A program made the translations under genes and the position numbers. DNA of 64,000 nt from Fontivita pretiosa (GTDB lineage Bacteria; Planctomycetota; Phycisphaerae; Tepidisphaerales; Tepidisphaeraceae). The stretch is taken from assembly GCF_050410795.1 (NCBI RefSeq), contig NZ_CP191258.1:1443118-1507117 (forward strand), read 5' to 3'. The notes beneath the pieces were generated by a model. It worked only from the letters and a program-made list of their open reading frames with translations. It was not told the DNA's origin and did not search any database. Of the stretch, positions 16,439 to 61,314 are shown one piece after another. The stretch's first letter is position 1. The number at the start of each line of letters is the position of its first letter.

Positions 16439-16456
16439 CGACGTCGCTGGACTGCC

Positions 16457-16930
16457 GTGCGAGTCCGTTGGGCGCCACCCGGCCGCCTTCTGGCTGCCAA
16501 GCGGGCGGCCCAAATGATCCAGAACGCGGCCGCGGGGATGAAGTTCCAGAATGAGATGCGACTGCTTTTGCGGGAGGTGGAGCAACTGGACGTGCCGGCG
16601 AAAAAGCGATTCTTCGACGTGGTCCTCGCTACGGGCAGGGCGCGGCGAACGTTTCCCGATGTCGTGATCGCCGGGCAGAGCATGATCGAAATCAAGCGAG
16701 TACAATCGCTGCAACTGACCGACCAGTTCAGAGCACAGATCCAGGCGGCGAAAGAGCATGGATTGAATTATCGGATCATCGTTTCGGATACCCTGGTTGG
16801 AGATCCGGATCCACGCCTTACGCGTCTGATGACGGATCTGCTCTTGAACCGGGCCAACGGAAAGACCGCGAGCATCGAAAAGTACGACAGCATTCAGAGG
16901 AAGCTGGTGAAGATATGGCCCTTGGAATAG
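16457..16930 (+). CDS. 157-aa PD-(D/E)xK nuclease-fold-like small protein, cassette copy 2 (candidate toxin)
   Basis: FFDVVL...FPDVVIAG-x5-IEIK resembles an Hjc/YraN-type PD-(D/E)xK signature; overlaps the downstream gene by 16 nt. The true start may be an internal ATG (MIQNAAAG or MKFQNE). Confidence 0.55.
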   Translation: MRVRWAPPGRLLAAKRAAQMIQNAAAGMKFQNEMRLLLREVEQLDVPAKKRFFDVVLATGRARRTFPDVVIAGQSMIEIKRVQSLQLTDQFRAQIQAAKEHGLNYRIIVSDTLVGDPDPRLTRLMTDLLLNRANGKTASIEKYDSIQRKLVKIWPLE

Positions 16931-17988
16931 GCATGGCATACCTGAGTTTTGTTGCTGAAGAGATGCTATCAGACGACGCGCTCGTTCAGCTCACGCTCGA
17001 CTTTGCGGCGCGATTCCCACGCCTGGCTCCCCAGGAGATCGGGTTGAAGCCGGAAGCGGTCAGATTCGATTCCGCCAGGCTCAAATCGGTGCTGACCCCG
17101 GAGCGACTGGAGTTCGGTTGGAGTTGGAGACGAAGTAGACCTGACATAGAAGGTCGCAGATCGCGCGACCCCCGTGATGGGGACGAGAATGAGTACCTCT
17201 CCATCGACTTGGATCATGTCGAGCAGCAGGAACTGCTCGAGGTGGCCGAGTGGTATGCCCAGCGGGTGCGACTGGCATACGCTCACATCCATGTCCTGTC
17301 CGAGCCGGAGGCGCAGCATGCGGCCGCGCGAGGTTTGGCCTTCCTGGGAATATCGCCTCAGGCTCACAAAGATCCCCAGGCATGGAGCTACTACCCGCGG
17401 AATCTGAATCAGCTCTGCAACGGCATTCCCGACCTGTGCTGGGTGACGGTCTTCGGGCCGATGTACGTCCGTCACTTTGGTCGCGAGCGGCTGCTGTCGG
17501 CCCCGGCGCCGGTCGTGCGCGAGATCGCGACGGATACCATCCTGCTGCAACTGAGCCACAGCTACACTGAGGTCGCCACGGACTGGGAGAAGTTCAATGC
17601 CACGCGCGAGGCGGTCATCGACCATCTCGGCCGCGAGTGCTTCAACCGCGTGCGCACGCCCAGCGATCCCCCACCCAGCGGACAGCGCGACGCACGGCTC
17701 GTGGATGTGGATCCGCGTTTCATCCCGCGGGAGTTGATGCCCCGGCGACAGAAGTTTCTCGCCGCCGCCTCGACTCCGCCCGAAGCCCTGCCCCCGCCGC
17801 TGACTAGCCTTGAGGAAATGCTCGCGCACGTTGGCCGACTGAAGGTGATAACGATCATGGGTTCGCGCGTCCTGATCGATAAGGAGCGAAAGGAGCTGAT
17901 CGGGTTCGCCGATCCGAAACTGGCCGAGGAATGGATCGACAAGCTCATCGCCGCCGGGGTGGAGGCGCAGGGGACGAGTCAACGGTGA
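16915..17988 (+). CDS. 357-aa hypothetical protein, cassette copy 2
   Basis: Identical domain architecture to copies 1 and 3; protein-like composition, whereas the opposing 506-aa minus ORF is R/G/P-rich low complexity. Confidence 0.6.
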   Translation: MALGIGMAYLSFVAEEMLSDDALVQLTLDFAARFPRLAPQEIGLKPEAVRFDSARLKSVLTPERLEFGWSWRRSRPDIEGRRSRDPRDGDENEYLSIDLDHVEQQELLEVAEWYAQRVRLAYAHIHVLSEPEAQHAAARGLAFLGISPQAHKDPQAWSYYPRNLNQLCNGIPDLCWVTVFGPMYVRHFGRERLLSAPAPVVREIATDTILLQLSHSYTEVATDWEKFNATREAVIDHLGRECFNRVRTPSDPPPSGQRDARLVDVDPRFIPRELMPRRQKFLAAASTPPEALPPPLTSLEEMLAHVGRLKVITIMGSRVLIDKERKELIGFADPKLAEEWIDKLIAAGVEAQGTSQR

Positions 17989-18006
17989 CGACGTCGCTGG
18001 ACTGCC

Positions 18007-18480
18007 GTGCGAGTCCGTTGGGCGCCACCCGGCCGCCTTCTGGCTGCCAAGCGGGCGGCCCAAATGATCCAGAACGCGGCCGCGGGGATGAAGTTCCAGA
18101 ATGAGATGCGACTGCTTTTGCGGGAGGTGGAGCAACTGGACGTGCCGGCGAAAAAGCGATTCTTCGACGTGGTCCTCGCTACGGGCAGGGCGCGGCGAAC
18201 GTTTCCCGATGTCGTGATCGCCGGGCAGAGCATGATCGAAATCAAGCGAGTACAATCGCTGCAACTGACCGACCAGTTCAGAGCACAGATCCAGGCGGCG
18301 AAAGAGCATGGATTGAATTATCGGATCATCGTTTCGGATACCCTGGTTGGAGATCCGCATCCAGACCTTACGGGTCTGATGAGGGACCTGCTCTTGAACC
18401 GGGCCAACGGAAAGACCGCGAGCATCGAAAAGTACGACAGCATTCAGAGGAAGCTGGTGAAGATATGGCCCTTGGAATAG
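18007..18480 (+). CDS. 157-aa PD-(D/E)xK-like small protein, cassette copy 3
   Basis: Identical to copy 2 except the C-terminal DPHPDLTGLMRD segment. Confidence 0.55.
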   Translation: MRVRWAPPGRLLAAKRAAQMIQNAAAGMKFQNEMRLLLREVEQLDVPAKKRFFDVVLATGRARRTFPDVVIAGQSMIEIKRVQSLQLTDQFRAQIQAAKEHGLNYRIIVSDTLVGDPHPDLTGLMRDLLLNRANGKTASIEKYDSIQRKLVKIWPLE

Positions 18481-19538
18481 GCATGGCATACCTGAGTTTT
18501 GTTGCTGAAGAGATGCTATCAGACGACGCGCTCGTTCAGCTCACGCTCGACTTTGCGGCGCGATTCCCACGCCTGGCTCCCCAGGAGATCGGCCTGAAGC
18601 CCAACACGGTCAAAGTTGACCCCCGGACGCTCAAAGCGGCGCTGACACCGGAGCGGCTGGATGACGGCTGGCATTGGAGGCGACGTAAGCCTGACGTACG
18701 AGGATGCAGGTCACGCTTTCGCAGTGAGGGCGACGAGCATGAGTACCTCTCCATCGACTTGGATCATGTCGAGCAGCAGGAACTGCTCGAGGTGGCCGAG
18801 TGGTATGCCCAGCGGGTGCGACTGGCATACGCTCACATCCATGTCCTGTCCGAGCCGGAGGCGCAGCATGCGGCCGCGCGAGGTTTGGCCTTCCTGGGAA
18901 TATCGCCTCAGGCTCACAAAGATCCCCAGGCATGGAGCTACTACCCGCGGAATCTGAATGAGCTCTGCAACGGCATTCCCGACCTGTGCTGGGTGACGGT
19001 CTTCGGGCCGATGTACGTTCGGCACTTCGGTCGCGATCGGCTGCTGTCGGCCCCGGCGCCGGTCGTGCGCGAGATCGCGACGGATACCATCCTGCTGCAA
19101 CTGAGCCACAGCTACACTGAGGTCGCCACGGACTGGGAGAAGTTCAATGCCACGCGCGAGGCGGTCATCGACCATCTCGGCCGCGAGTGCTTCAACCGCG
19201 TGCGCACGCCCAGCGATCCCCCACCCAGCGGACAGCGCGACGCACGGCTCGTGGATGTGGATCCGCGTTTCATCCCGCGGGAGTTGATGCCCCGGCGACA
19301 GAAGTTTCTCGCCGCCGCCTCGACTCCGCCCGAAGCCCTGCCCCCGCCGCTGACTAGCCTTGAGGAAATGCTCGCGCACGTTGGCCGACTGAAGGTGATA
19401 ACGATCATGGGTTCGCGCGTCCTGATCGATAAGGAGCGAAAGGAGATGATCGGTTTTGCCGATCCGAAACTGGCCGAGGAATGGATCGACAAGCTCATCG
19501 CCGCAGGCGTGGAGGCGCAGGGGACGAGTCAACGGTGA
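18465..19538 (+). CDS. 357-aa hypothetical protein, cassette copy 3 (mosaic variant)
   Basis: ~99% identical to copy 2, except a ~160-bp patch (codons ~45-95) that is strongly divergent at both synonymous and non-synonymous sites. Confidence 0.6.
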   Translation: MALGIGMAYLSFVAEEMLSDDALVQLTLDFAARFPRLAPQEIGLKPNTVKVDPRTLKAALTPERLDDGWHWRRRKPDVRGCRSRFRSEGDEHEYLSIDLDHVEQQELLEVAEWYAQRVRLAYAHIHVLSEPEAQHAAARGLAFLGISPQAHKDPQAWSYYPRNLNELCNGIPDLCWVTVFGPMYVRHFGRDRLLSAPAPVVREIATDTILLQLSHSYTEVATDWEKFNATREAVIDHLGRECFNRVRTPSDPPPSGQRDARLVDVDPRFIPRELMPRRQKFLAAASTPPEALPPPLTSLEEMLAHVGRLKVITIMGSRVLIDKERKEMIGFADPKLAEEWIDKLIAAGVEAQGTSQR

Positions 19539-22518: not shown

Positions 22519-22705
22519 GCCCTCAAACTCCTGTTGCTGATGGAGCCAGTCTGCGTTCCCGACGGCTGCGCGTCAAATCTCCGCCGCGGCGGCACAGTCG
22601 CACGAGTCCTGTGCAGAAACACGCCACTCTGTGACACGGGCGTCTCGCCGGTGCGGGCGATCAGACCATGTGCGGGATGCCCGTGAAAAAAAAGGCGCGA
22701 AGTGG

Positions 22706-30157: not shown

Positions 30158-30949
30158 ATGAACGCTCAATGGCTGCTCGGTTGGTGGAACCTGGTCTTTC
30201 TGGTGCCATTTGCACTGGCACTGCTGTATCTGGGGGTCTATACCCTCAGCGGCTGGACCTTCGGCGACGCCGACGCAGACATGGACTCGGACGTTGACTC
30301 CGACCTCGACGCCGATGCCGATATGGACGCCGACGCCGACGTCGATGCCCACGCAGACGTCGATGCCGAAGCCGATCACGATCTGCCCCACGCCGAGCAT
30401 GATGTTGAGACTGACGGCTCGGCACTGGGTTCGGCGCTGTGGGCGGGCCTGAGTTTTCTTGGCGTGGGACAGGTCCCGCTCAGCATCGTCATGATGATCC
30501 TGCTGCTGACCTGGGGCGGAATCGGATTCGCCACCAATCAGCTCGCCCGCGAGCATGTCGGCCAGTCCTGGCACGTCGCCATGTATTCACTGCCGCTGGC
30601 GGCGATCGCGAGCCTGCTGATCACCAGCGGCACCAGCCGCGCCATCAACCGCTTCATGCCGCTGAACCTCAGCACCGCCAAGCGACGTCACGAACTGCTC
30701 GGAAGCGGCGGGGAAGTGATTTTGCCGGTCGATTCGAAATTCGGCCTGGTCAGCGTCCGCGATGAATCCGGCGACCTGTACCAGGTCCCCTGTCGGTTGG
30801 AATGCGGCGACGACGAGCATCGCGTGATCCCCAAAGGCGCGCGGGTCAAACTCGTCGCCTACAGCGCAAAGGAATCGCTGTTTTACGTGCTGCCGGTATC
30901 AAAGTCCGTCTACGCCAGCAGCGAGTCGAAGACAAAACAGAAAAGCTGA
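30158..30949 (+). CDS. NfeD-like membrane protein (YqiJ-type) with an acidic D-x repeat loop
   Basis: N-terminal TM helix, ~40-aa alternating-Asp tract, more TM helices, C-terminal OB-fold-like region; GGAGG RBS. Immediately upstream of the flotillin gene, the classic nfeD-SPFH pairing. Confidence 0.7.
30264..30382 (+). repeat. Imperfect hexanucleotide (GAC-NNN)n repeat, ~20 units, coding for [39 protein letters not shown]
   Basis: Direct 6-nt periodicity visible in the sequence. Confidence 0.8.
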
Positions 30950-39476: not shown

Positions 39477-41642
39477 TTACGGCACGTTGCTCACCACGTC
39501 GTTGGAGTCCTTGGAGATCACATCCGTGCCCGCGCCGCCATCAACCGTATCGATCACGCCGTCGAGCACGCGGATATCGTCGTTGCCCGCCTCGCCGAAG
39601 ATCACGTCCGCCCCCGCGCCGCCGGTGATCGTGTCGTTGCCCGCCCCTCCGAGGATGCGGTTGGCCCCGGAGTTGCCGGTCAGCACGTCGTTGCCCGCCC
39701 CGCCATAGATCCACTCCAGGTCATTGGCCAAGGCGTCATTCTCCCCGGTCTGTCCGTCGTTGGCCACGCCATCGAGCGAGACGTTGACCGCGGCGGTGCG
39801 GTCGGAGTAGTCGATGGTGTCGGTGCCGGCCCCGCCGATCACCGAGTCAGTGCCGGTGCCGGGGGTAATGAAGTCGTTGCCGTCGCCACCATTGAGCGTG
39901 TCGTTCCCGACGCCGCCTTCGAGGATGTCCCCGTTGCCGCCGCCCACCAGCGAATCGTTGCCGCCGCCTCCCTTGAAGAAGTTGCGCTCATTGTTGCCGA
40001 TGAAGATGTCTCCCCCGCCGCCGCCGAACAGGTTCTCCACGTCCGGCATGACGTTGTCTCTTTCACTCTTGGACACGCCATCGTTGGCCACGCCGTCGAG
40101 CGTGACCGTCACCGCGCGGGAGGACTCATAGTAGTAGTCGGCGCGGTCGCGTCCGGCGCCGCCGTTGAACACGTCGGTGCCGCTGCCGCCCAGCAGCGCG
40201 TCGTTGCCGTCTCCACCGTTGAGCAGGTCGTTGCCGATGCCCGCATTGATCCGGTCATCTCCGGCGCCGCCGTTGAGCGTGTCGTTGCCGGCGATCCCGA
40301 GCAGGAAGTCATTGCCCGCCCCGCCGTCCATCGAGTCGTTACCGTCGTGCCCGGTGAGCCGGTCGTTTCCGGCCCCGCCCAGCAGCGTATCGTCGCCCGC
40401 CTCGCCCCAGACGGTGTCGTTGCCGTCGCCGCCGTCCAGACTGTCATTGCCGATTCCACCGAACAGCGCGTCATCCGCCGCGCCGGTGCTGATCGTGTCG
40501 GCGCCATCGCCGCCCTCGACGCGGTCGCGTCCGGTTCCGCCGGTGATCGAGTCGTTCTCCGTGCCGCCGCGGATGATGTTGTTGCCCGAGGCATCGGTGA
40601 TGACATCGGCGCCGGCGTCGCCGTCGATCGTGTCGTTATCCGCCCCGCCGTTGAGGTTGTCGGCGCCTTCGTTGCCGCGGATCACGTCATTGCCGGCTTC
40701 CCCGAGGATCGTGTCGTTGCCAAGCTGCCCGAAGAGGCTGTCGGCGCCGGCCCCGCCGGTGATCGAATCATTGCCGTCACCGCCCTGGACCGAGTCATCC
40801 CCGTCGCCGCCGGTGATCACGTCGTTTTCGCTCGAGCCCAGCAGGATATCGTTGCCGACATCGCCGTTGATCGTGTCGTTGTGGGTTCCGCCGTCGATGC
40901 TGTCGTCGCCGGAGCCGCCGTCGATGCTGTCGGGGTTGTTTCCGCCGGTGATGGTGTCGTTGCCGGCCCCGCCCTGGATGAAGTCATTGCCTTCGCCGCC
41001 GATGATCGAGTCGTTGCCGTCGCCACCGGACGCCCCGCGGAACGCCGCCAGCGCCACGCTCAGGTCGATCGTATCGTTGCCCGACCCGCCGACGATCGTC
41101 TCCACCGTCATCAGGACGTTGTCATTCTCCCCGCTCTCGCCGTCGTTGGCGACGTCGTCCATGAGGATCGTCAGATCGGCGTTGCGCGAGGCGTAGGTGA
41201 CGGTGTCGAGGTTGTCCCCGCCGTCCATGATGTCAGCACCCGCGCCGCCGTCGATCAGGTCGTTGCCGCCATTGCCCAGGATGCTGTCGTCCCCGTTGCC
41301 ACCGTTGATCGTGTCATCGTTGTCCGATCCGGAGATGGTGTCGTTGCCGTCGCCGCCGTTGAACGTGATGTTGCCGGTATCCGGCGCGGCGCTGAGGGTG
41401 TCGTTGCCGCCCAGTCCGTTGATCTCGATCGTCGCGAAGTAGTTCGGATCGGCGGTGTTGAAAATGATGTCAAAGCGCGTCTCCACGCCATCGATGACGA
41501 CCACCGCCTCTTCGGGGCTGACGGTGTGGTCGATACTCAGGCTGATGGTGTTGTCCGTTCCGTCACCATCAATGACCAGAACGTCGCGGGCATCGTCAAT
41601 TGAAGCGGCAAGAAGCCGGCGTTTTTCAAGGGACTCAAACAT
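39477..41642 (-). CDS. RTX/hemolysin-type Ca-binding repeat protein (paralog 1)
   Basis: Dozens of GGxGxDxL/I/V nonapeptide repeats. Start set at MFESLEKRRLLAAS, which has an AAGGAG RBS; the tool start is 62 codons upstream with no RBS. Ends ...DVVSNVP. Confidence 0.8.
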   Translation of the reverse strand: MFESLEKRRLLAASIDDARDVLVIDGDGTDNTISLSIDHTVSPEEAVVVIDGVETRFDIIFNTADPNYFATIEINGLGGNDTLSAAPDTGNITFNGGDGNDTISGSDNDDTINGGNGDDSILGNGGNDLIDGGAGADIMDGGDNLDTVTYASRNADLTILMDDVANDGESGENDNVLMTVETIVGGSGNDTIDLSVALAAFRGASGGDGNDSIIGGEGNDFIQGGAGNDTITGGNNPDSIDGGSGDDSIDGGTHNDTINGDVGNDILLGSSENDVITGGDGDDSVQGGDGNDSITGGAGADSLFGQLGNDTILGEAGNDVIRGNEGADNLNGGADNDTIDGDAGADVITDASGNNIIRGGTENDSITGGTGRDRVEGGDGADTISTGAADDALFGGIGNDSLDGGDGNDTVWGEAGDDTLLGGAGNDRLTGHDGNDSMDGGAGNDFLLGIAGNDTLNGGAGDDRINAGIGNDLLNGGDGNDALLGGSGTDVFNGGAGRDRADYYYESSRAVTVTLDGVANDGVSKSERDNVMPDVENLFGGGGGDIFIGNNERNFFKGGGGNDSLVGGGNGDILEGGVGNDTLNGGDGNDFITPGTGTDSVIGGAGTDTIDYSDRTAAVNVSLDGVANDGQTGENDALANDLEWIYGGAGNDVLTGNSGANRILGGAGNDTITGGAGADVIFGEAGNDDIRVLDGVIDTVDGGAGTDVISKDSNDVVSNVP

Positions 41643-41864
41643 CGTACATCGCTCCTTCTGACAAGAGGGTCCGCGCCACAGCCCTGCGGCGCGCACGCAA
41701 ACACTGTGACCAGCAGACAAACAGGTTATCGGAAAGATCGGACCGGTTTGATGAACCTGTCCGCTTGGAACACCAGGAACCTCAGGAAGCACTTTCGATG
41801 ACCCGGGCCACGCACTCGGTTCGCTCATTGTGCCCCACGAATCGGGGGCGCGACGGGAAAATCA

Positions 41865-42015: not shown

Positions 42016-45000
42016 CTACGGCACGTTGCTCACCACGTCCAGACCCGAATCCTCCAGCAGATCGTCGGTCCCCGTCCCGCCATCGATCCGGTCTGCCGTG
42101 CCGTCGTTGGCGTGGATCAGGTCATCGCCTTCACCGGCGAACAGGAAATCGCGCCCGAGCCCGCCGTTCAGATAATCATTGCCCGAGCCGGCCCGCAGCG
42201 TGTCGTTGCCCGCCCCGCCGTACAGCTTCGTGCTGCGCGTCCGGTGCCCGCGCAACGCGTCGTTGCCGCTGCCGCCGATCAGGACTTCGATGTCGTTATC
42301 GAGCTTGTCAAACTCCCCCGCGCCGCCGTCGTTGGCCAGTTCATCCAGCGACAGCGACAGGTTATCGCTGCGATCTGAATAATCCGCGGTGTCCGTGTTC
42401 TTGCCGCCGATGAACCGGTCCGGGCCACTGCCGCCGTTCAGCAGGTCGCTGCCGTTCATTCCGTTCAGCGTGTCGGAGCCGGCCCCGCCATACAGCGAGT
42501 CGTGTCCGTCCATGCCGATAAGCAGATCGTTGCCCTGACGACCGTCCAGGATGTTCGCGCGAGCGTTGCCGGTCAAAATGTCGTTGCCACGACCGCCTTC
42601 CAGATGCTCCACCGTTGCATCGATCAGGTCGGCCTCCGCGAACACGCCGTCGTTGGGCAGACCATCGAGCGAGGCGGTCACCGGCCGCGTCTCGTAGTAG
42701 TAGCTGACCCGGTCGGATCCGGCGCCGCCGATCATGGTGTCGGTGCCGCTGGCGCCGATGATCGTGTCGTCGCCCGCGCCGGCGTCGATCGAGTCGTTGT
42801 CCGGCCCGGCATGCAGCCGGTCGGCGCCGCTGCCGGAACTGATCGTATCGGCGCCCGAACCGCCGTAGACGATGTTGTCACCATCTCCGGCCGTCAGCGT
42901 GTCGCTGCCGGCCCCGCCGTCGATGTAGTCCGCCCCCGCCCCGCTGGAGACGCTGTCGTCTCCCTCTGCCGCCGTGATCGTGTCGTTGCCCGCGCCCGTG
43001 GTGATCGTGTCGTTACCGTCGCCGGCCGGGACGCTGTTGTTCCCGTCCCCGGCGCTGATCGCGTCGTCTCCGCTGCCGCCGTTGATCGTGTCGTTGCCCG
43101 CTCCGCTCGAGACCGTGTCCCGGCCGTCACCGGCATCGATGGTGTTGTTGCCCGCGGCGGCGGCAATGGTGTCGTCGCCGGCGCCCGCATCGATCACGTC
43201 GTTGCCCGAGCCGCTGGAGATCGTGTCGTTGCCCTCGGCGCCGATGATCCGGTTGTTGCCGTTGTCGCCGCTGAGCCGGTCGTCGCCGGCCCCGCCATCC
43301 AGCGTGTCATCCCCGCCGCTGCCCACCAGCGTATCGTTGCCCATCCCGCCGATGAACCGCCGAGCCTGGCTGGACGGCCCGGCCTGAATCCGGTCGTTGC
43401 CTGTCCCACCGATGACCGTCTCCACCGAGTCCTCGACGTTGTCGCCTTCTCCCGGCGAGCCGTCGTTGGACAGGTTGTCCATGATCACGGTCACGCCGCC
43501 GGTGCGATCGGAGTAATCGATCAGGTCGTTGCCGTTGCCGCCGTCGAACGTGTCGGCGCCCAGCCCGCCGTTGAGCGTATCGTCGCCGTCGCTGCCAACC
43601 ACCAGGTCGTTGCCATCGCCGCCGTCGATCGAGTCGTTGCCGGCGTTGCCGTTGAGGATGTCCTGCCCGCTGCCGCCGATCAGGGTATCTCCCGAGCTGC
43701 CGCCGGAGAGCGTATCGTGCCCGTCATTGCCCTCGATGCGCACGCGGAAGGTTGCCGCACCCAGATCGATATCGTCGTCGCCGCTGCCCCCGAACACCGT
43801 TTCGACGAACGTGACGTTGTCGTTCTCGCCGGCTTCGCCGTCGTTGGCCACGTCGTCCAGCGTGACATTGACTCCGGTCGTGCGGTCGGAGTAATCGACC
43901 ACATCTCCGCCACTTGGCCCGCCGTTGATGATGTCGGCTCCCGCGCCGCCGTCGAGCGTGTCGCTGCCCGCGTTGCCGTAAAGGGTGTCGTTGCCTCCGC
44001 CCGCGATGATCGAGTCGTTTCCGGCTCCTCCGATCAGCTCGCGCGATACGTTGTCGGTGATGTTGATCAGGGTGTCACTCCCCGAGCCGCCGATCACACG
44101 CTCGATCGTCTCGGTGACAAAGTCCATCTCCCCGGATTGACCGTCGTCATGGATGTCGTTGAAGATGACGGTGATCGCGGCGGTGCGACGGGAATAGTCG
44201 GCGGTATCGAAGCCCGCATCGCCCTGGAGTGTATCGGCCCCGTTGAGCGCGTCGCCGTCGTTAAGCCAGTCGTCTCCCCCTCCGCCGGTGACCAGGTCGT
44301 CTCCGCCATCGCCAGCCAGGCTGTCGTTGCCGACCGTGACCGCGTCGGTGAAATCCTGAAGGTCTCCGTGCAGCGTGTCGTTGCCATCGCCACCGAAGAT
44401 CGTGTCGTTGCCGGCGCCACCTTCTACACTGTCGCTACCCCCACCCGCGTTGATCCAGTCGTTCCCATTTTCGCCGACGATGCCGTCGTCACCGTTGCCG
44501 CCGAGAATCGAATCATCTCCATTGCCGGCTTCGACAGCGTCCGCTCCCCCGCCCGCGTCGATCGTGTCATCGCCTGCGCCGGCGATGATCGAATCTCCTC
44601 CTTCTCCACCCAGGATGCTGTCGTCCTGGTCGCCTGTGGTGATCGTATCGCTGCCGCCGTTGCCGATGACCGTGACGCTGTATCCCAGGGCAGCCACGTC
44701 GATGATGTCGTTACCCTCGCCTCCCTCGAACTGCTCAAACGTTGTAAGGTCCGGGTCGTCGAACTCCCGGACGAGGCGTGTGGGCTCACCATCAATGTCA
44801 ATCATCTCGGTATAACCGGTCCCCTGGAGCGCGGGTTCGTCTTCCCCCGCCCCATCGGCGCCAAACAGCGGATTGGCAGGGATGGGATAGATGATGTCTA
44901 CATTGGGAATCTGCTCGCGTTCGTCGGCATAACTCAACAGGTCGATGCCGGCACCCCCATCCATCGTGTCCTGGCCCACGCCGCCGATGATGGTGTCATC

Positions 45001-45546
45001 GCCGGCATCGCCGCTCAGCACATCGCCATTCATCAACTGCGGATTGGTGTCCGGTTGCTCGCTATTTCCACCCCCATCAAGGCGATCGTTGCCGTCGCCG
45101 CCGGAGATCGTGTCTTGCCCACCGGTCTCATCGTTCAATTCGTCACCCGCGGCCTCTGACGTGTCGTCGCCGCGCAGGTCATCGTTACCCGTTCCGCCGG
45201 TGATCGAATCGTCCCCGGGTCCGCCGTAAACGGTGGTATTGCCATTTCCCGCGGTAACCGTGTCATTCCCGCCGCCGGCAACGATCGTGGCCGGAACAGT
45301 GATGTTCGACGCGATGGTGATGCTGTCGTCGCCACCGGTGCCGTTGATCCGGATCGCGGTGATCTGGTTGGCCGGGTATTGGGCATTAAACCCTTCGGGG
45401 CTGATGGTGACGGTATAGGTGGTAGCGTCGCGGATGATATTGAAGGTGGCGGTGGAGGGTGTGCTGTTGAGCGTCAGCACTCCATTGATGACCGACGCGG
45501 TAAGCAGATACCGGCTTTCAAGCGGATCGATGAAGGACGAGGACAT
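42016..45546 (-). CDS. RTX/hemolysin-type Ca-binding repeat protein (paralog 2, 1176 aa)
   Basis: Repeated GGAGNDT/GGSGND nonapeptides throughout; N-terminal DPLESRYLLTAS and C-terminal LDVVSNVP, both shared with paralog 1. Confidence 0.85.
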   Translation of the reverse strand: MSSSFIDPLESRYLLTASVINGVLTLNSTPSTATFNIIRDATTYTVTISPEGFNAQYPANQITAIRINGTGGDDSITIASNITVPATIVAGGGNDTVTAGNGNTTVYGGPGDDSITGGTGNDDLRGDDTSEAAGDELNDETGGQDTISGGDGNDRLDGGGNSEQPDTNPQLMNGDVLSGDAGDDTIIGGVGQDTMDGGAGIDLLSYADEREQIPNVDIIYPIPANPLFGADGAGEDEPALQGTGYTEMIDIDGEPTRLVREFDDPDLTTFEQFEGGEGNDIIDVAALGYSVTVIGNGGSDTITTGDQDDSILGGEGGDSIIAGAGDDTIDAGGGADAVEAGNGDDSILGGNGDDGIVGENGNDWINAGGGSDSVEGGAGNDTIFGGDGNDTLHGDLQDFTDAVTVGNDSLAGDGGDDLVTGGGGDDWLNDGDALNGADTLQGDAGFDTADYSRRTAAITVIFNDIHDDGQSGEMDFVTETIERVIGGSGSDTLINITDNVSRELIGGAGNDSIIAGGGNDTLYGNAGSDTLDGGAGADIINGGPSGGDVVDYSDRTTGVNVTLDDVANDGEAGENDNVTFVETVFGGSGDDDIDLGAATFRVRIEGNDGHDTLSGGSSGDTLIGGSGQDILNGNAGNDSIDGGDGNDLVVGSDGDDTLNGGLGADTFDGGNGNDLIDYSDRTGGVTVIMDNLSNDGSPGEGDNVEDSVETVIGGTGNDRIQAGPSSQARRFIGGMGNDTLVGSGGDDTLDGGAGDDRLSGDNGNNRIIGAEGNDTISSGSGNDVIDAGAGDDTIAAAAGNNTIDAGDGRDTVSSGAGNDTINGGSGDDAISAGDGNNSVPAGDGNDTITTGAGNDTITAAEGDDSVSSGAGADYIDGGAGSDTLTAGDGDNIVYGGSGADTISSGSGADRLHAGPDNDSIDAGAGDDTIIGASGTDTMIGGAGSDRVSYYYETRPVTASLDGLPNDGVFAEADLIDATVEHLEGGRGNDILTGNARANILDGRQGNDLLIGMDGHDSLYGGAGSDTLNGMNGSDLLNGGSGPDRFIGGKNTDTADYSDRSDNLSLSLDELANDGGAGEFDKLDNDIEVLIGGSGNDALRGHRTRSTKLYGGAGNDTLRAGSGNDYLNGGLGRDFLFAGEGDDLIHANDGTADRIDGGTGTDDLLEDSGLDVVSNVP

Positions 45547-53257: not shown

Positions 53258-54967
53258 ATGCCTGCCCTGCGAGCTGCGATCTTCGGCGCGCTGCTCAGTC
53301 CGGTTCTGGCGGTCATGCTCTGCATCCCCGCTCGTGCCGCCGTCGATGAAAACCAGAAGATCAAGTGGCTTGACCAAACCCTTGGCGCGCTGGAGGCCAC
53401 GATCCAACTGTATCGCTCGCAGCACGACGGCGCCGATCCCGACTTTGCCAGACTCGGCTGGCGACAGTTGATCAGCCCCACAGACCCCACCGGGCGGATC
53501 GTCAAATCCGGCACGTGCGGGCCTTACCTCAACGCCCCGCCGGGCAATCCGCTCAACGGCTTCAGCGGCGTGGCGGTCATCGATCAGCCGCCGCATGCGG
53601 GCATGCACATCGCGGGCGAGCGAATGGGTTTTGCGTTCTATGCGGCGACCGGCAGCTTCGTCGGCACCGACGCCACCGGAAAACGCCTGCTCGACCCGGA
53701 CCTGAAACGCGCCTATCCCGGAGCGTTCGCCTTCAAGCCCGCGGGCAATGCTGCGGATCTGGCCGCACGCAGAAAAAACCTGCTGGCCATCGTCCAGTCG
53801 CTGCGTCAGGCGCTGGCGGCGTATCGCATCGACCACCTCGATCAACTTCCCGACTTCCGCAGATATCCCGACTGGCAACAACTGACCGCCAGGACCGACA
53901 ACGACGGAACTCTAAACCCGCGCGGCCGGTTCGGCCCGTACCTGCGGGATATCCCCATCAACCCATTGAACGGATTTCATCGCGTGGAGCTGGCAGCCTC
54001 CGCCCCGGCGCCCGGCACCATCGCCCGGGCGAGCGACATCGGATATCTGCTCGAACCCAAAGCCGGACAAATCTGGGGGCTGGATGAAAGCGGCGTGGTG
54101 ATCCTGGATGAATCAGCCCAGCCACCCAGCGATGGAAATCCCGCAGCGCCATCCAGGCCGGCGGCAAGCCCCGGCGCCCGGAAGCTTGACGCTGAACTCC
54201 AGAATTCGCGCATCCGACTGCTCTACGTCACGCTTGTCCTGCTGGATACCCAGCTTCGCGCCTACCAGATCAGTCACGACGGCGCCACGCCCGATTTCCT
54301 TCAGCACGGGGAATGGAAGCGTTTCTCAGCCACCAGTGACAAGTCGTTTGCGATCCGCAATCCGCTGAACAATTTCAGCGGCCTTCTGGTCGTGCCGCGC
54401 CCGCCGCGACCGACAGACCCCATCCGCCAGCCCGGCGTCGGATTCGTCTTCTGCGCCAGCGAGGGCCGGTTCTGGCCCACCGGCGCCGACGGCGCCAGCG
54501 TGATGGATCGCGATCTGCGGGCCACGCATCCGGACGCATTCGACACCTGCGCGCCCGGCGGCGAATCTGCCCTGGCCGCCGACAACCGCGCTCGCTCGCA
54601 ACTGCTGCTGCTGTCGGCGGTGCGCACGGCGATCAGGCTCTATCGCATGCAGCACGCCGGGCAACTGCCCGATTTCAATCGTTATCCCGACTGGCAGCAG
54701 CTCACGATGCGCACCGACGCCTCGGGCCGACCGACTTCCTCCGGCCAGTTCGGGCCCTACCTCAGCGAGCCGCCACGCAATCTGATCACCGGCGAGCATC
54801 GCGTGCTGGTCGTACGCAGTATCCGGGACGCACAGAACGCGCACGCCGACCAGCCCATCGGCTACGCGCTGGACCTGTCCGCCCAACGGATCTATTCCGC
54901 GGATCTTTCCCAGCCCCCTGGCGACATCGAAGCCAACCCCGCCGGCACCGCACAAGCCGACCCGTAA
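53258..54967 (+). CDS. Secreted protein with four tandem type II secretion pseudopilin (GspG-core)-like domains
   Basis: Sec signal peptide, then four repeats of L..YR.QH.G..PDF......W.QL...TD..GR....G.FGPYL...P.NPLNGF. This resembles the GspG LDxYrldnGxYP...GPYLkk.PkDPWGn core; there is no prepilin leader. Confidence 0.55.
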   Translation: MPALRAAIFGALLSPVLAVMLCIPARAAVDENQKIKWLDQTLGALEATIQLYRSQHDGADPDFARLGWRQLISPTDPTGRIVKSGTCGPYLNAPPGNPLNGFSGVAVIDQPPHAGMHIAGERMGFAFYAATGSFVGTDATGKRLLDPDLKRAYPGAFAFKPAGNAADLAARRKNLLAIVQSLRQALAAYRIDHLDQLPDFRRYPDWQQLTARTDNDGTLNPRGRFGPYLRDIPINPLNGFHRVELAASAPAPGTIARASDIGYLLEPKAGQIWGLDESGVVILDESAQPPSDGNPAAPSRPAASPGARKLDAELQNSRIRLLYVTLVLLDTQLRAYQISHDGATPDFLQHGEWKRFSATSDKSFAIRNPLNNFSGLLVVPRPPRPTDPIRQPGVGFVFCASEGRFWPTGADGASVMDRDLRATHPDAFDTCAPGGESALAADNRARSQLLLLSAVRTAIRLYRMQHAGQLPDFNRYPDWQQLTMRTDASGRPTSSGQFGPYLSEPPRNLITGEHRVLVVRSIRDAQNAHADQPIGYALDLSAQRIYSADLSQPPGDIEANPAGTAQADP

Positions 54968-54976
54968 CAAAAAAAT

Positions 54977-55104
54977 CACGGGCGTTTCGCCTGTGTTGAG
55001 TGGCATGAAGCGATGGATAGCCCGGAGATCGGACTTTCGAAATCGAGTGCACCCTGCATGGCCGGGACGGCCATGCCACAGTTGGCTCGGACGCATCACG
55101 GGCG
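54977..55104 (+). repeat. REP-like ~125-bp intergenic repeat element, copy A
   Basis: ~85% identical to 61131..61287; conserved palindrome GCATGGCCGGGACGGCCATGC; bounded by CACGGGCG motifs; lies between convergent 3' ends. Confidence 0.7.
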
Positions 55105-55123: not shown

Positions 55124-56545
55124 TTAGCCGACCTCCAGTTCGTCAGCTTCCGGAATCGCCCGCGGTCGCATCGTCACGAACAGAATGGTAATGATGACAC
55201 CGAGCACGGCGGCGATGACCAGCGGCCGCACGCCCACGCTCGGATCGTGGTATAGCGCGATGATTCGCGACCCGATCAGCGCGACATTCACGATGATCCC
55301 CACCGCCGGTACCACAATCGGCACCTCAAACGCGCCGTGCGGCTCGCCGGGTCGCAGCTTCAGCACGATCAGCGCGCCGTTGACCACGGCGAAACATCCC
55401 AGCAACAGCAGCCCCGTCGTCGTCGCCAGCTCACCCACCCCGCCCGCCAGAGACAGCACGATCACGATGCACAGCAGCGTCAGGATGGCCACGTGCGGGG
55501 TGCGACGGCTGCGGTGCACCCGTCCCAGCGCCGCCGGCAGCAGCCCGTGCCGGGACATCCCGTACAGCAGCCGCGAACCCATGATGTAGTTGATCAGCAC
55601 GGTGTTGGCCACCGCGAACATGGTGATGAACTTGTAGACCCACGCCGGCAGCCACGGCGACGCCACCGCCGTAATTTCCGCCAGCGGCGCCGCAGCCCGC
55701 GCCAGCGTCGCGTACGGCACCACCGACACCGCCGTGATCGCGATCGCCATGTACAGCCCCGCCACGATCGTCAGCGCCGTGACGATCCCCCAGGGCATCG
55801 TCCGCTGCGGGTTTTTGACTTCCTCGGCCACATTGAGCATGTCCTCGAAACCCACGAACGCGAAGAACGTCAACACCGCGCCGCTGAACAGCATCACCGG
55901 CCCAAGCGTTCGCTGCGGCGGCGTTTCCAGATAGCTCACCTGTCCCCAGTAACGCATGCCCACGATCACGATGAACAGCAATCCACCCACCTCGATCGCC
56001 GTGCACAGCAGGTTCGTCCACATCGACTCGCGAATGCCCCGGAAGTTCACCAGCGTCATGAACAGCAGAAACCCGACGATCACGATCACCACGCCCACGT
56101 CGTGATCGACCAGCTTGTACGGCCCCAGCGGGACGAGGATCCTTCCCAGCTTCCCGCTGATCCCCAGCAGCTCGGCCAGAACGTTCGAGAACGCATTGGT
56201 GCTGGTGGCCATGCTGGTCAGGCCGGATGCCGCGACGGTCAACCCGACCACGTAGGAAAGGAACGTGAAGCGATAGGCGCGCTGGGTGACGTAGGCGGCG
56301 CCGGCGGCGCGCGGATATCGCGAGGCGATTGAAGCGTAGCTCAATCCCGTCAGCATCGCCGCGATCATCGACACGAAAAACGCCAGCCAGACCGCATTGC
56401 CCATCTGCCCCGCGGCCTTGCCCACGGTGGCGTAGATCCCGCTGCCGACCATGTCCCCCACCCCGTAAATCACCAGCGCCCAGAAACCCATGTTGCGGGC
56501 CAGGCTCGGTTGCGCTGCGGCGGGTTGAGTGGCAGTGCTGGTCAT
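55124..56545 (-). CDS. APC-superfamily amino acid permease
   Basis: 12-TM pattern; N-terminal GVGDMVGSGIYATVG APC signature; start at MTSTATQ. Confidence 0.85.
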   Translation of the reverse strand: MTSTATQPAAAQPSLARNMGFWALVIYGVGDMVGSGIYATVGKAAGQMGNAVWLAFFVSMIAAMLTGLSYASIASRYPRAAGAAYVTQRAYRFTFLSYVVGLTVAASGLTSMATSTNAFSNVLAELLGISGKLGRILVPLGPYKLVDHDVGVVIVIVGFLLFMTLVNFRGIRESMWTNLLCTAIEVGGLLFIVIVGMRYWGQVSYLETPPQRTLGPVMLFSGAVLTFFAFVGFEDMLNVAEEVKNPQRTMPWGIVTALTIVAGLYMAIAITAVSVVPYATLARAAAPLAEITAVASPWLPAWVYKFITMFAVANTVLINYIMGSRLLYGMSRHGLLPAALGRVHRSRRTPHVAILTLLCIVIVLSLAGGVGELATTTGLLLLGCFAVVNGALIVLKLRPGEPHGAFEVPIVVPAVGIIVNVALIGSRIIALYHDPSVGVRPLVIAAVLGVIITILFVTMRPRAIPEADELEVG

Positions 56546-59413: not shown

Positions 59414-60265
59414 TTAGCCTGTTGCGCGCCGCACGCGGCTTCGGTACTCTTCGTGCAACCGCGCGGTGACTTTTCCGCACGCCCCGTCCCCGATCGTCAC
59501 GTCGTCCCACCGTGATACCCACACAAGCTCGCGCGTGGAGCTGGTCACGAATACCTCGGCGGCGCGCTTCGCTTCCTCGAGCGTCATCGCCCGCTCCTGC
59601 ACCGGTATCCCCAGCTCCTGCGCACAGCCGAGCACGAGCTGTCGCGTGACCCCCGGCAGAATCCGCCCGTCCAGCGGATGCGTCACCACCGCGCCGTCGA
59701 TCACGGCGTAGACGTTGCTCGAGGAGCCTTCCAGAACGACGCCCTGATCCACGAAGACGGCTTCATCGGCGCCCGCCTCGGCGGCGGCGTTGCGCGCCAG
59801 CACGTTGGGCAGCAGCCCGATCGCCTTGATCCAGCATCGCTTCCATCGCTCATCCGGCACGCTCAGCAGCGCGTAAGGTCGGCCTTGTCCCACCGGCGGC
59901 AACGGCGCCAGCGTCCGCACGTAAAACAGCACCGTCGGATGCGGATCTTTCGGAAACAAGTGCTCCCGTTTCGACGGGCCGCGCGTGACCTGAAGATAGA
60001 TCAACCCTTCGCGATGCTGGGCATGGGCGATCAATTTCAGGATTTCCGAAGTCAGTGTCGGCTTGTCGATCGGCAGCTTCAGCCGAATGCCGTCGCAGGA
60101 TCGTTCCAGCCGATCCAGATGCGCCGCCAGCTCGAACGGCCGGCCGTTGTAGACCCGAAGCGCCTCGTACACGCCATCGGCGAACTGAAAACCGCGATCC
60201 TCGACGCTGACCCTCGCCTCGGACAAGGGCATGATCTGCCCGTTCAACCAGCACCATTCGATCAT
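59414..60265 (-). CDS. Class IV (fold type IV) PLP aminotransferase (BCAT/D-AAT/ADC-lyase family)
   Basis: GFQFADGVYEALRVYNGRPF...catalytic Lys region...EVFVTSSTREL...VSRWDDV family motifs. Confidence 0.85.
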   Translation of the reverse strand: MIEWCWLNGQIMPLSEARVSVEDRGFQFADGVYEALRVYNGRPFELAAHLDRLERSCDGIRLKLPIDKPTLTSEILKLIAHAQHREGLIYLQVTRGPSKREHLFPKDPHPTVLFYVRTLAPLPPVGQGRPYALLSVPDERWKRCWIKAIGLLPNVLARNAAAEAGADEAVFVDQGVVLEGSSSNVYAVIDGAVVTHPLDGRILPGVTRQLVLGCAQELGIPVQERAMTLEEAKRAAEVFVTSSTRELVWVSRWDDVTIGDGACGKVTARLHEEYRSRVRRATG

Positions 60266-60306
60266 TTCGACTCCCGTGTGGCCTGATCATATCATGCGCA
60301 GCGGCG

Positions 60307-61050
60307 ATGACGAGCTGGGACGACAAGCTGCTGAGCAATCCACACGCGGTGGCCGACAAGCGATCGCGCGTGCAGCGGATGTTCGCCGCCATCGCGCCCA
60401 GCTATGACCTCAACAACCGCCTGCACAGCCTCTGGCAGGACCAGCGCTGGCGGCGGAAGGCGGTGAAGCTGGCGCAGGTCAGGCGCGACGAGTTCGTGGT
60501 CGATGTCGCCTGTGGCACGGGAGACCTGACGCTGGCGTTTGCTGCCGCCGAACCCCGGGCGGCAATCGGGATCGACTTCACGTACCCCATGCTGCCGATC
60601 GCCCGCGCCAAGTCGCAAACCTCCAAATGCGGCTCCCGCATCCGCTTCATCGCCGCCGACGCCCAGACCCTGCCCCTGCCCGACCAATCCGCCGACGTCG
60701 TCTCCATCGCCTTTGGCATCCGCAATGTTCAGCAGCCGCTGGTTGCGCTGAAGGAGTTTTATCGCATCCTCCGCCCCGGCGGGCGGGTGATCATCCTCGA
60801 GTTCTCGCTGCCGACCAGCAGAATCCTGGGCACGTTGTACAACTTCTACTTCCGCCGGATCCTGCCGGTCACCGCCACCCTCATCAGCGGCGACAAGACC
60901 GGGGCGTACAGGTATCTGCCCCAGAGCGTCAACACCTTCCTCGGCCGCGAACAGATGATGCAGATGATACGCGACGCCGGCTTCGTGGACGTGCAGCAGT
61001 TCCCCATGACCTTCGGTGTATGCGTGTGCTACCGCGGGCTGAAGCGATGA
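60307..61050 (+). CDS. ubiE: Demethylmenaquinone/ubiquinone C-methyltransferase
   Basis: SAM motif VVDVACGTGDL; UbiE/MenG-typical N-terminus (FAAIAPSYDLNNRLHS) and C-terminus. Confidence 0.9.
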   Translation: MTSWDDKLLSNPHAVADKRSRVQRMFAAIAPSYDLNNRLHSLWQDQRWRRKAVKLAQVRRDEFVVDVACGTGDLTLAFAAAEPRAAIGIDFTYPMLPIARAKSQTSKCGSRIRFIAADAQTLPLPDQSADVVSIAFGIRNVQQPLVALKEFYRILRPGGRVIILEFSLPTSRILGTLYNFYFRRILPVTATLISGDKTGAYRYLPQSVNTFLGREQMMQMIRDAGFVDVQQFPMTFGVCVCYRGLKR

Positions 61051-61130
61051 CAGAATGCCCAGGGCCGGCGCGATGTGCTCGAGCCTGTCCGGGAGCTTTG
61101 TGTAGCGATCGTTCGTGCCATGTGCGTCCC

Positions 61131-61287
61131 GCCCGTGCTGGCGCCGGGCCTGTGTTGAGCGGCATGCAGTGATGAACAGCCCGGAGATCAGGCTTTCGAA
61201 CTCGATCGCGCCGCGCATGGCCGGGACGGCCATGCCACAGGCGACTCGGACGTGTCACGGGCGTCTCGCGGTGGGACGCCCGTCATT
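61131..61287 (+). repeat. REP-like intergenic repeat element, copy B
   Basis: Same element as 54977..55104, with an extra 8-bp hairpin CGGGCGTC/GACGCCCG at its 3' side; lies between convergent genes. Confidence 0.7.
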
Positions 61288-61314
61288 CGCCCGCCAGTCG
61301 GGCGCCTCGGGGTG

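What the first reader, a model, noticed from the sequence alone, without database searches (positions are those of the whole stretch)
54977..55104. REP-like ~125-bp intergenic element present twice, each time between convergent gene 3' ends
Regions 54977-55104 and 61131-61287 align over ~115 nt with ~85% identity. Both contain the perfect palindrome GCATGGCC-GGGAC-GGCCATGC, both are flanked by CACGGGCG/CGCCCGTG motifs, and copy B has an extra CGGGCGTC/GACGCCCG hairpin. Both sit between convergently transcribed genes (53258..54967+ / 55124..56545-, and ubiE+ / nitroreductase-). The ORF track finds conserved 'peptides' in both strands of the element, but the changes between copies are overwhelmingly non-synonymous, so a non-coding element is more likely. 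Candidates are a bidirectional terminator/REP family, a small ncRNA, or a MITE.
Basis: seen in the sequence. Interest (0 to 1): 0.5.

Follow-up and report, generated by a model that had tools for sequence, protein, structure and literature searches.

The report
Decayed REP/REPIN repeat cluster, two copies
The repeat is real, but it is an ordinary kind of bacterial "junk" repeat: a cluster built around a REP hairpin, the short palindromes copied around genomes by a domesticated RAYT transposase, here seen in a Planctomycete-like genome.

Summary
Window 54989-55104 and 61148-61263 align without gaps over 116 nt at 84.5% identity. Both carry the perfect palindrome GCATGGCCGGGACGGCCATGC and both lie between convergent genes.

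The unit is non-coding. It matches no Rfam family. Beyond the palindrome it shows no statistically supported RNA structure.

The palindrome is a canonical REP: a 9-bp stem and 3-nt loop abutted by a GTGG tag on the minus strand. The exact 21-mer occurs in at least 111 different metagenomic contexts, and 94-97% of those with complete flanks carry the GT[AG]G tag. In 44% it is paired with an inverted partner, GTGG-CACGGGCG-TCC-CGCCCGTG, which differs from it by two compensatory stem pairs. On three independent contigs such doublets flank both sides of a RayT (Y1 HUH transposase) gene.

The closest relatives lack the element at both orthologous sites, so it was inserted in this lineage.

Verdict: a new member of a known kind (REP/REPIN-BIME). 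The copy number in the source genome and any terminator or mRNA-stabilising role remain untested.

The parts
54989..55104 (.). Repeat unit, copy A (116 nt shared with copy B)
   Evidence: blastn gives 84.5% identity over 116 nt, E=4e-20. See also D14 and alignment A1.
55056..55079 (-). REP1, intact. On the minus strand it reads GTGG-CATGGCCG-TCC-CGGCCATG-C: a GTGG tag, then a stem and 3-nt loop (9 bp counting the terminal G-C pair).
   Evidence: Perfect palindrome. Detected as a tagged hairpin. The same 21-mer plus [C/T]AC occurs in 94-97 of 100 unique metagenome contexts.
54977..54995 (+). REP2-like hairpin CACGGGCG-TTT-CGCCTGTG. It has no GTGG tag and one G.T pair. On the minus strand it is followed by U7 (54969-54975), which is terminator-like for the permease mRNA.
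   Evidence: 1 mismatch to CACGGGCGNNNCGCCCGTG. Sequence read. Not picked up by the terminator scan, because the minus-strand stem is interrupted by an A.C mismatch.
54996..55055 (.). 60-nt spacer between the REP2-like hairpin and REP1 in copy A. It includes a small hairpin AGCCCG-GAGAT-CGGACT (55022-55038).
   Evidence: The spacer has no detectable relative in 122 metagenome contexts of REP1.
55097..55104 (+). CACGGGCG half-site at the right edge of copy A (5' half of a REP2-like stem; the 3' half is not recognisable)
61148..61263 (.). Repeat unit, copy B
61215..61238 (-). REP1, intact and identical to copy A, including the GTGG tag
61115..61137 (+). Decayed tagged REP2: GTGC-CATGTGCG-TCC-CGCCCGTG, with 3 mismatches to the canonical GTGG-CACGGGCG-TCC-CGCCCGTG
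   Evidence: 2 matches in the window against 0.01 expected by chance.
61257..61283 (+). REP2-like expanded hairpin ACGGGCGTC-TCGCGGTGG-GACGCCCGT, 17-18 nt downstream of REP1
   Evidence: Inverted repeat I8. This stretch aligns at ~82% to metagenomic REP1-9 nt-REP2 doublets.
61288..61304 (+). Further small GC hairpin CGCCCG-CCAGT-CGGGCG in the copy-B intergenic region
   Evidence: Read from the sequence
22631..22653 (+). Third decayed REP2-like hairpin in the window: GTGA-CACGGGCG-TCT-CGCCGGTG. It lies in the intergenic region downstream of EF-G and has no REP1 partner.

Best explanation
Each locus is a small REP cluster (REPIN/BIME-like) belonging to a REP-RAYT system.

**The core.** The core is an intact REP that I call REP1: a GTGG tag, a 9-bp stem and a 3-nt loop. 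To its left, in the canonical inverted orientation, lies a decayed partner that I call REP2-like (stem CACGGGCG). It sits 60 nt (copy A) or 77 nt (copy B) away, instead of the 8-9 nt seen in doublets next to RayT genes. To the right of REP1 there is a further REP2-like remnant.

**How it spread (inferred).** Elements of this class are non-autonomous. A single-copy RAYT (HUH Y1 transposase) recognises the single-stranded hairpin together with its GT[AG]G tag and cleaves and joins there, which disperses the units. I infer that the 116-nt unit was copied as a block, either by RAYT action or by recombination between REPs. It landed in two gene-poor spots between convergent genes, where insertions are tolerated. 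This happened after the lineage split from its nearest sampled relatives. Since then the unit has drifted by 15%, while the REP1 hairpin stayed perfect.

**Present-day effect (inferred, not shown).** Any effect is most likely incidental: a stable GC hairpin in the 3' UTRs of both convergent genes. It could block 3' exonucleases or act as a pause or terminator. In copy A, the REP2-like hairpin followed by U7 could terminate the permease transcript.
For: **Tag.** REP1 is followed by CAC in both window copies. In 100 unique metagenome contexts the next bases are C/T (96), A (97) and C (94), which is GT[AG]G on the opposite strand. The 5' side shows no conservation.

**Dispersed family.** No protein family recurs beside them.

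**Partner.** 49 of 111 contexts have an inverted GT[AG]G-tagged partner upstream, most often with stem CACGGGCG. Spacers range from 0 to 120 nt, and several are 56-74 nt.

**Covariation.** REP1 and REP2 differ only at two stem pairs, and both changes are compensatory: C-G to T-A and G-C to C-G. This is read directly from the sequences.

**RAYT link.** ORFs in L124, L132 and L133 hit PF01797 Y1_Tnp (28.4 bits against a cutoff of 23). Close homologues of the L124 ORF, including the L132 and L133 proteins, are named 'REP element-mobilizing transposase RayT' by JGI. All three are flanked on both sides by REP2-8/9 nt-REP1 doublets. L132 carries 6 doublets in 7.2 kb.

**Window anatomy.** Decayed REP2-like hairpins lie at 54977, 61115 and 22631, against 0.01 expected by chance.

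**Empty sites.** Relatives with a 92%-identical permease have a 39-bp spacer and no element. Relatives with 81-82%-identical UbiE have 119-bp or 38-bp spacers and no element.

**Age.** The two copies differ by 15.5%. Third-codon divergence from those relatives is 25-27%. This is consistent with insertion after the split.

**Literature.** GTAG-tagged REPs, a GTGG variant, and dimers with 20-100 bp spacers are described in Planctomycetes and Verrucomicrobia (PMC3733652).
Against: - Only two full copies are known, both in this window. The 5.54-Mb source genome could not be searched, so neither high copy number nor a cognate RAYT is shown for this organism.
- No RAYT gene lies in the window.
- The 60-77-nt spacer has no relative among the metagenome contexts, and the partner REPs are decayed and poorly tagged. 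The unit may therefore no longer be a RAYT substrate. The duplication could instead be recombinational.
- No target-site signature marks the insertion boundaries.
- The taxa of the metagenome contigs that carry REP1 were not determined.
Confidence: 0.8

Rival explanations
1. The unit is a structured cis-acting RNA or a small RNA (for example 3'-UTR-derived) read from the minus strand. In this view the palindrome is just one of its helices, and the unit is kept by selection for RNA function.
For: - RNAalifold on the minus strand finds a three-way junction in which all 7 changed pairs stay paired: 2 compensatory changes and 5 G.U-compatible changes.
- The inner hairpin AGYCYG-AUCUC-CGGGCU tolerates its two changes only as G.U pairs on the minus strand.
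- Both copies lie 45-77 nt downstream of minus-strand stop codons.
- In copy A a hairpin followed by U7 closes the unit on the minus strand.
Against: - There is no Rfam match, even at E<=10.
- Structures predicted from either copy alone are broken by the other copy's substitutions as often as by randomly placed ones (P about 0.5 on both strands).
- Column shuffling with the REP hairpin held fixed gives z=-0.63 (minus strand) and +0.96 (plus strand).
- No promoter-like site lies nearby.
- The unit is absent at the orthologous sites of the closest relatives, so it is not a conserved regulatory feature of these genes.
Confidence: 0.08
2. The hairpins are kept mainly as bidirectional transcription terminators or mRNA 3'-end protectors between convergent genes. 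Their REP-like sequence is secondary.
For: - Both copies sit between convergent 3' ends.
- The 9-bp GC-rich palindrome folds identically on both strands.
- Copy A has A7 upstream of a hairpin, which gives hairpin plus U7 on the minus strand.
- From my own knowledge of the E. coli literature, REPs are reported to stabilise upstream mRNA and to attenuate transcription.
Against: - REP1 has no U-tract on either strand, and the terminator scan reports nothing at either copy.
- Close relatives manage the same convergent junctions with 38-119-bp spacers and no such hairpin.
- The same hairpin occurs in more than 100 unrelated contexts, including inside called genes on L132. That fits dispersal by a transposase, not selection for termination.
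- This reading is compatible with the main one only as a secondary effect.
Confidence: 0.1
3. The unit is a classical MITE moved by a DDE transposase through its terminal inverted repeats (GCCTGTG...CACGGGC), and it merely happens to carry a REP.
For: The edges of the 116-nt unit are 7-8-nt inverted repeats. The unit is MITE-sized and shows presence/absence polymorphism.
Against: - The 'inverted repeats' are halves of REP2-like hairpins that continue outside the unit.
- No direct target-site duplication flanks either copy.
- No third copy occurs in 64 kb, and none was found in 7.3 Gb of plasmids.
Confidence: 0.02

Closest known systems
GTAG-tagged REP superfamily (Di Nocera et al. 2013, PMC3733652), including families in the PVC superphylum (Rhodopirellula baltica; Opitutus terrae GTAG-20, whose tag is mostly GTGG)
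   Same: - A short GC-rich stem-loop of 6-9 bp with a 2-3-nt loop.
- An unpaired GT[AG]G tag at one end.
- Extragenic position.
- Frequent dimers in inverted orientation with 1-100-bp spacers.
- Subfamilies that differ by compensatory stem changes.
- Links to RAYT genes.
   Different: The consensus sequences in that paper's Figure 1 are not held in the library. I therefore could not check whether CATGGCCG-TCC-CGGCCATG or CACGGGCG-TCC-CGCCCGTG matches one of its 24 families. A full-text search for these sequences found nothing.
REPIN-RAYT systems (Bertels & Rainey 2011, PMC3116915)
   Same: Two inverted REPs form a doublet. Doublets flank a single RayT gene on both sides (L124, L132, L133). The units are dispersed and non-autonomous.
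   Different: - In the window the partner REP is decayed and poorly tagged, and the spacer is 60-77 nt rather than short. The window copies are therefore at best degenerate REPINs.
- The two arms of the canonical doublet are non-identical variants, with 4 differences in 23 nt.
E. coli BIMEs (mosaics of Y and Z REPs with linker motifs). This comparison rests on my own knowledge.
   Same: Alternating-orientation REPs of two sequence variants are separated by linkers. They lie at 3' ends of genes and between convergent genes. The whole cluster, linkers included, is repeated.
   Different: The sequences and the phylum differ. No evidence was gathered here for IHF, gyrase or Pol I binding. Only two copies of this particular mosaic are known.

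Membership tests
REP (GT[AG]G-tagged repetitive extragenic palindrome) | Short (20-40 nt) palindromic stem-loop | tested here: met
   GCATGGCCG-GGA-CGGCCATGC: a 9-bp perfect stem and 3-nt loop in both copies
REP (GT[AG]G-tagged repetitive extragenic palindrome) | Conserved GT[AG]G tetranucleotide abutting one end of the stem only | tested here: met
   GTGG is present in both window copies. In 100 unique metagenome contexts the three tag positions are 96, 97 and 94% conserved, while the other side is unconserved.
REP (GT[AG]G-tagged repetitive extragenic palindrome) | Extragenic location | tested here: met
   Both window copies lie between convergent stop codons. On L132 some doublets fall inside called genes; the literature also reports this for O. 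terrae.
REP (GT[AG]G-tagged repetitive extragenic palindrome) | Many copies per genome | not testable with these tools
   There are only 2 REP1 and 3 REP2-like hairpins in 64 kb. A related contig, L132, has 12 REPs in 7.2 kb.
REP (GT[AG]G-tagged repetitive extragenic palindrome) | Cognate RAYT (Y1 HUH transposase) gene flanked by the same REPs | tested here: met
   Met on three metagenomic contigs, L124, L132 and L133. Not tested for the window's own genome. No RAYT lies in the window.
REPIN | Two REPs in inverted orientation, with a short spacer, acting as one unit | tested here: inconclusive
   The canonical REP2-8/9 nt-REP1 doublets exist elsewhere. In the window the orientation is right, but the partner has lost or damaged its tag and stem, and the spacer is 60-77 nt. 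Spacers of 56-74 nt do occur in 9 metagenome contexts.
Intrinsic (Rho-independent) terminator | GC-rich hairpin immediately followed by a U-tract | tested here: not met
   REP1 has no U-tract on either strand, and the scan finds nothing at either copy. Only the imperfect REP2-like hairpin of copy A is followed by U7, on the minus strand.
MITE | Terminal inverted repeats plus a target-site duplication | tested here: not met
   The 7-8-nt inverted ends are halves of REP2-like hairpins. No direct repeat flanks either copy.
Known RNA family (Rfam 15) | Covariance-model match at or above the gathering score | tested here: not met
   There are 0 matches at gathering thresholds over the whole window. 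Only chance-level hits (E>=1.2) appear at either copy.
Small protein gene | Open frame under purifying selection | tested here: not met
   Two frames are open in both copies, but only 2/13 and 3/13 changed codons are synonymous. Substitutions fall 7/5/6 across the three codon positions.

The most novel reading that the evidence does not exclude
The 116-nt unit may be more than a decaying REP cluster. It could be a lineage-specific, still active long-spacer REPIN, or a REP-derived small RNA or 3'-UTR element whose 60-nt conserved spacer has acquired a function.

A related possibility concerns the REP1 21-mer. Its exact identity across more than 100 contexts from many metagenomes might reflect horizontal spread of one REPIN-RAYT system across distant lineages. 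REPIN-RAYT systems are described in the literature as mostly vertically inherited (abstracts listed).
Probability: 0.1. Interest if true: 0.45.

Novelty: new member of a known kind. Interest (0 to 1): 0.2.

Why it matters
The practical value is mostly in annotation. These intergenic repeats should be labelled as REP/REPIN remnants, not as candidate sRNAs, small ORFs or MITEs.

The work also yields a concrete, testable REP-RAYT pairing. GTGG-CAYGGSCG-TCC-CGSCCRTG doublets flank RayT genes in an under-studied group of environmental bacteria, where REP systems have been described only briefly.

The two compensatory stem pairs that separate the two REP variants give clean covariation support for the hairpin itself.

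Tried and rejected
- **Rfam:** at gathering thresholds over the whole window, and at E<=10 on each copy. Nothing meaningful was found.
- **blastn against 72,556 plasmids:** copy A gave no match.
- **Genome-contig scan:** I used the spacer motif GCCCGGAGATCNNNCTTTCGAA. It returned only 3 chance hits inside unrelated genes.
- **Exact look-ups of window proteins:** intended to reach the source genome. They returned only a 1.5-kb JGI contig or nothing. The cluster record shows the genome exists at NCBI: 5,538,121 bp, protein WP_428940019.1.
- **RNA-structure tests:** single-sequence structure with substitution placement, and alifold column shuffling. Neither was significant. The apparently perfect alifold covariation is therefore not evidence on its own.
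- **Search for relatives of the 60-nt spacer:** scores in the REP1 metagenome contexts were at or near shuffled-control level.
- **Recurrent neighbouring protein family in the 120 loci:** none was found.
- **Literature search for the literal REP sequences:** no paper holds them.
- **First fold call:** it failed on a length limit.

Full report
**1. The observation**

The two regions are a genuine repeat. blastn aligns window 54989-55104 with 61148-61263 over 116 nt, without gaps, at 84.5% identity (E=4e-20). It finds no third full copy in the 64-kb window.

Both copies hold GCATGGCCGGGACGGCCATGC (55056-55076 and 61215-61235). Even with three mismatches allowed, only 0.02 matches are expected by chance.

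The flanking genes are convergent. Copy A lies between a 569-aa ORF without Pfam domains (+) and an amino-acid permease (-). Copy B lies between a UbiE-type methyltransferase (+) and a nitroreductase (-).

**2. What it is not**

- **Not coding.** Only two of six frames are open in both copies. In those, 2 of 13 and 3 of 13 changed codons are synonymous. The 18 substitutions fall 7/5/6 over the three codon positions.
- **Not a described RNA family.** Rfam gives no match at gathering score in the whole window, and only chance-level hits (E>=1.2) when each copy is searched permissively.
- **No supported RNA structure outside the palindrome.** RNAalifold on the minus strand does draw a three-way junction in which every changed pair stays paired, but the method is built to find exactly that. 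I ran two controls.
  - I predicted the structure from one copy and asked whether the other copy's substitutions spare its pairs more than randomly placed ones. They do not (P about 0.5 on either strand).
  - I shuffled alignment columns while holding the palindrome fixed. This gives z=-0.63 (minus strand) and +0.96 (plus strand).

**3. The palindrome elsewhere**

These give 111 distinct sequence contexts. The flanks are unrelated to one another and to the window's unit, and no protein family recurs next to the hairpin. So it is a dispersed repeat, not a gene-linked signal.

The flanks are asymmetric. Upstream positions are unconserved. The three bases downstream are C/T (96 of 100 unique contexts), A (97) and C (94). 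Read on the other strand, this is a GT[AG]G tetranucleotide abutting the stem. That tag is the defining mark of the GTAG-tagged REP superfamily (PMC3733652). Both window copies carry GTGG.

In 49 of the 111 contexts an oppositely oriented GT[AG]G-tagged hairpin lies upstream. Its commonest stem is CACGGGCG. Spacers range from 0 to 120 nt.

This partner, GTGG-CACGGGCG-TCC-CGCCCGTG (REP2), has the same architecture as the window's palindrome read on its tagged strand, GTGG-CATGGCCG-TCC-CGGCCATG (REP1). The two differ at exactly two stem pairs, and both changes are compensatory: C-G to T-A and G-C to C-G (sequences). That is clean covariation support for the hairpin itself.

**4. Link to a transposase**

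One REP1-bearing contig, L124, encodes an ORF with HUH and Y...NP motifs. It passes Pfam's threshold for PF01797 Y1_Tnp (28.4 bits against a cutoff of 23). It belongs to a large family, many of whose members JGI names 'REP element-mobilizing transposase RayT'.

In L124 this gene is flanked on both sides by REP2-8 nt-REP1 doublets. I fetched the contigs of its 85%- and 75%-identical relatives.
- L132 has six such doublets in 7.2 kb, two of them bracketing the RayT gene.
- L133 shows the same bracketing, with a GTCTC loop variant.

**5. Anatomy of the two window loci in these terms**

*Copy A*
- 54977-54995: CACGGGCG-TTT-CGCCTGTG, REP2-like, with one G.T pair and no tag.
- 54996-55055: a 60-nt spacer.
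- 55056-55079: intact REP1.
- After a further 17 nt: a CACGGGCG half-site at 55097-55104.

*Copy B*
- 61115-61137: GTGC-CATGTGCG-TCC-CGCCCGTG, three mismatches from canonical tagged REP2.
- 61138-61214: a 77-nt spacer.
- 61215-61238: intact REP1.
- After a further 17-18 nt: an expanded REP2-like hairpin at 61257-61283.
- 61288-61304: a small CGCCCG/CGGGCG hairpin.

A third decayed REP2-like hairpin sits alone at 22631-22653. Matches this close to tagged REP2 are expected 0.01 times by chance.

The orientation (REP2 forward, REP1 reverse, tags outward) is the canonical one. The spacer, however, is 60-77 nt instead of 8-9 nt, and the partners are eroded. The 116-nt similarity starts inside the left REP2-like stem and ends inside the right one. 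This explains the 7-8-nt 'terminal inverted repeats'.

The 26-nt block around REP1 is identical in the two copies, although the rest of the unit differs by about 20%.

**6. Insertion, not ancestry**

The permease's closest relatives (92% amino-acid identity; L125 and L126) are syntenic, but only 39 bp separate their convergent stop codons, and nothing there resembles the element.

For copy B there are two relatives.
- A syntenic relative with 82%-identical UbiE (L131) has a 119-bp spacer and no element.
- Another relative (L129, 81%) has a different downstream gene, 38 bp away.

A 99%-identical strain contig (L001) ends at window position 61100, just before copy B. A repeat would be expected to break a short-read assembly there, but this is only suggestive.

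The two copies differ by 15.5%. Third-codon positions differ by 25-27% between the window and those relatives. A duplication younger than the split fits the empty sites.

**7. How it most likely works**

*Shown:* the hairpin, its tag, its dispersed family, its doublet partner, and the RayT genes bracketed by such doublets.

*Established elsewhere (from my own knowledge of the REP/RAYT literature, together with PMC3733652 and PMC3116915):* RAYTs are HUH Y1 enzymes that recognise the single-stranded REP hairpin with its GT[AG]G tag, and they are held responsible for REP/REPIN dispersal.

*Inferred for this window:*
- The 116-nt block (REP1, its spacers and the inner halves of the neighbouring REP2-like stems) was copied as a unit into two junctions between convergent genes, where insertions do least harm.
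- The block is now a decaying cluster in which only REP1 remains intact.
- It may incidentally provide a stable 3'-UTR hairpin for all four flanking genes.
- In copy A, the REP2-like hairpin followed by U7 on the minus strand looks like a terminator for the permease, although its stem has an A.C mismatch and the scan did not call it.

**8. Comparison with known systems**

The closest described systems are the following.
- The GTAG-tagged REP families of Di Nocera et al. These include Planctomycete (R. baltica) and Verrucomicrobial (O. terrae, GTGG-tagged) families, as well as dimers with 20-100-bp spacers.
- REPIN-RAYT systems.
- E. coli BIMEs, which are architecturally similar: two REP variants in alternating orientation with linkers.

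The REP membership features that could be tested are met: palindrome, tag, extragenic position, and RAYT association of the family. Copy number and a cognate RAYT in this particular genome could not be tested. REPIN membership of the window copies is inconclusive. Terminator, MITE, Rfam-family and coding definitions are not met.

The organism is Planctomycete-like. Its best named permease homologues are Tepidisphaeraceae at 67-68% identity, and an RTX protein gives a sub-threshold 'Planctomycete extracellular' hit.

**9. Limits**

- The source genome (5,538,121 bp, protein WP_428940019.1) could not be reached.
- The taxa of the REP1-bearing contigs are unknown, so I cannot say whether the identical 21-mer reflects one widespread clade or horizontal spread.
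- No expression data exist.

**10. Verdict**

The repeat is real, correctly suspected to be REP-like, and ordinary in kind: a degenerate REP/REPIN (BIME-like) cluster of a REP-RAYT system, inserted twice in this lineage. It is a new member of a known class. Interest is low, apart from the well-defined REP-RAYT pairing it exposes in Planctomycete-like environmental bacteria.

Noticed in passing
window 15092-19536: Three tandem copies of a 1550-bp unit at 98-100% identity (families D9-D11). They contain repeated 506-aa minus-strand ORFs (15419-16939 and 16969-18489) with no Pfam domain. This looks like a very recent tandem gene triplication. Tandem Repeats Finder reported nothing, because its longest period is 500.
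   Followed up: partly
window 39477-41828 and 42016-45546 (minus strand): Two large RTX proteins (783 and 1176 aa) with 16-19 matched stretches of the HemolysinCabind nonapeptide-repeat domain. They account for the many 27-nt-period direct-repeat families. The first also has a sub-threshold 'Planctomycete extracellular' motif.
   Followed up: partly
window 30266-30385: A short run of GAC/GAT-rich 6- to 18-nt-period repeats (family D13). If translated it would give an Asp-rich low-complexity stretch.
   Followed up: no
window 22631-22690: A solitary decayed REP2-like hairpin, GTGA-CACGGGCG-TCT-CGCCGGTG, lies downstream of the EF-G gene. It is followed by GCCCGTG and an A9 run. There is no REP1 partner.
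   Followed up: partly
L001 (JGI 3300044960, 99% identical to window 59629-61100): The contig of a near-identical strain ends about 15 nt before the copy-B REP cluster (REP2-like hairpin at 61115). A multi-copy repeat would be expected to break a short-read assembly at that point.
   Followed up: no
L132 218-272, 1095-1149, 6711-6764: REP2-REP1 doublets fall inside called genes, including a type I restriction-modification methylase ORF. The annotated RayT ORFs of L124 and L132 run through the flanking doublets, which translate as ...GTGVPPVA...HGRDGHAT... These are either in-frame REP insertions, as reported for O. terrae, or over-extended gene calls.
   Followed up: no
L017, L047, L084, L091, L097, L109-L112, L114 and others: A recurrent longer composite appears in several metagenome contigs...GGTGGACACAAAGTTCACA[A/G]ATCGGTCAAGTTT-REP1-9 nt-REP2-...GGCGGTATGAGG. 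This suggests another conserved mosaic or mobile unit built on the same REP pair.
   Followed up: no
L096, around the REP1 match: REP1 lies immediately upstream of, or within, the 5' end of a prepilin-type (GFTMIELIVALG) ORF. This is another example of a REP at a gene boundary.
   Followed up: no
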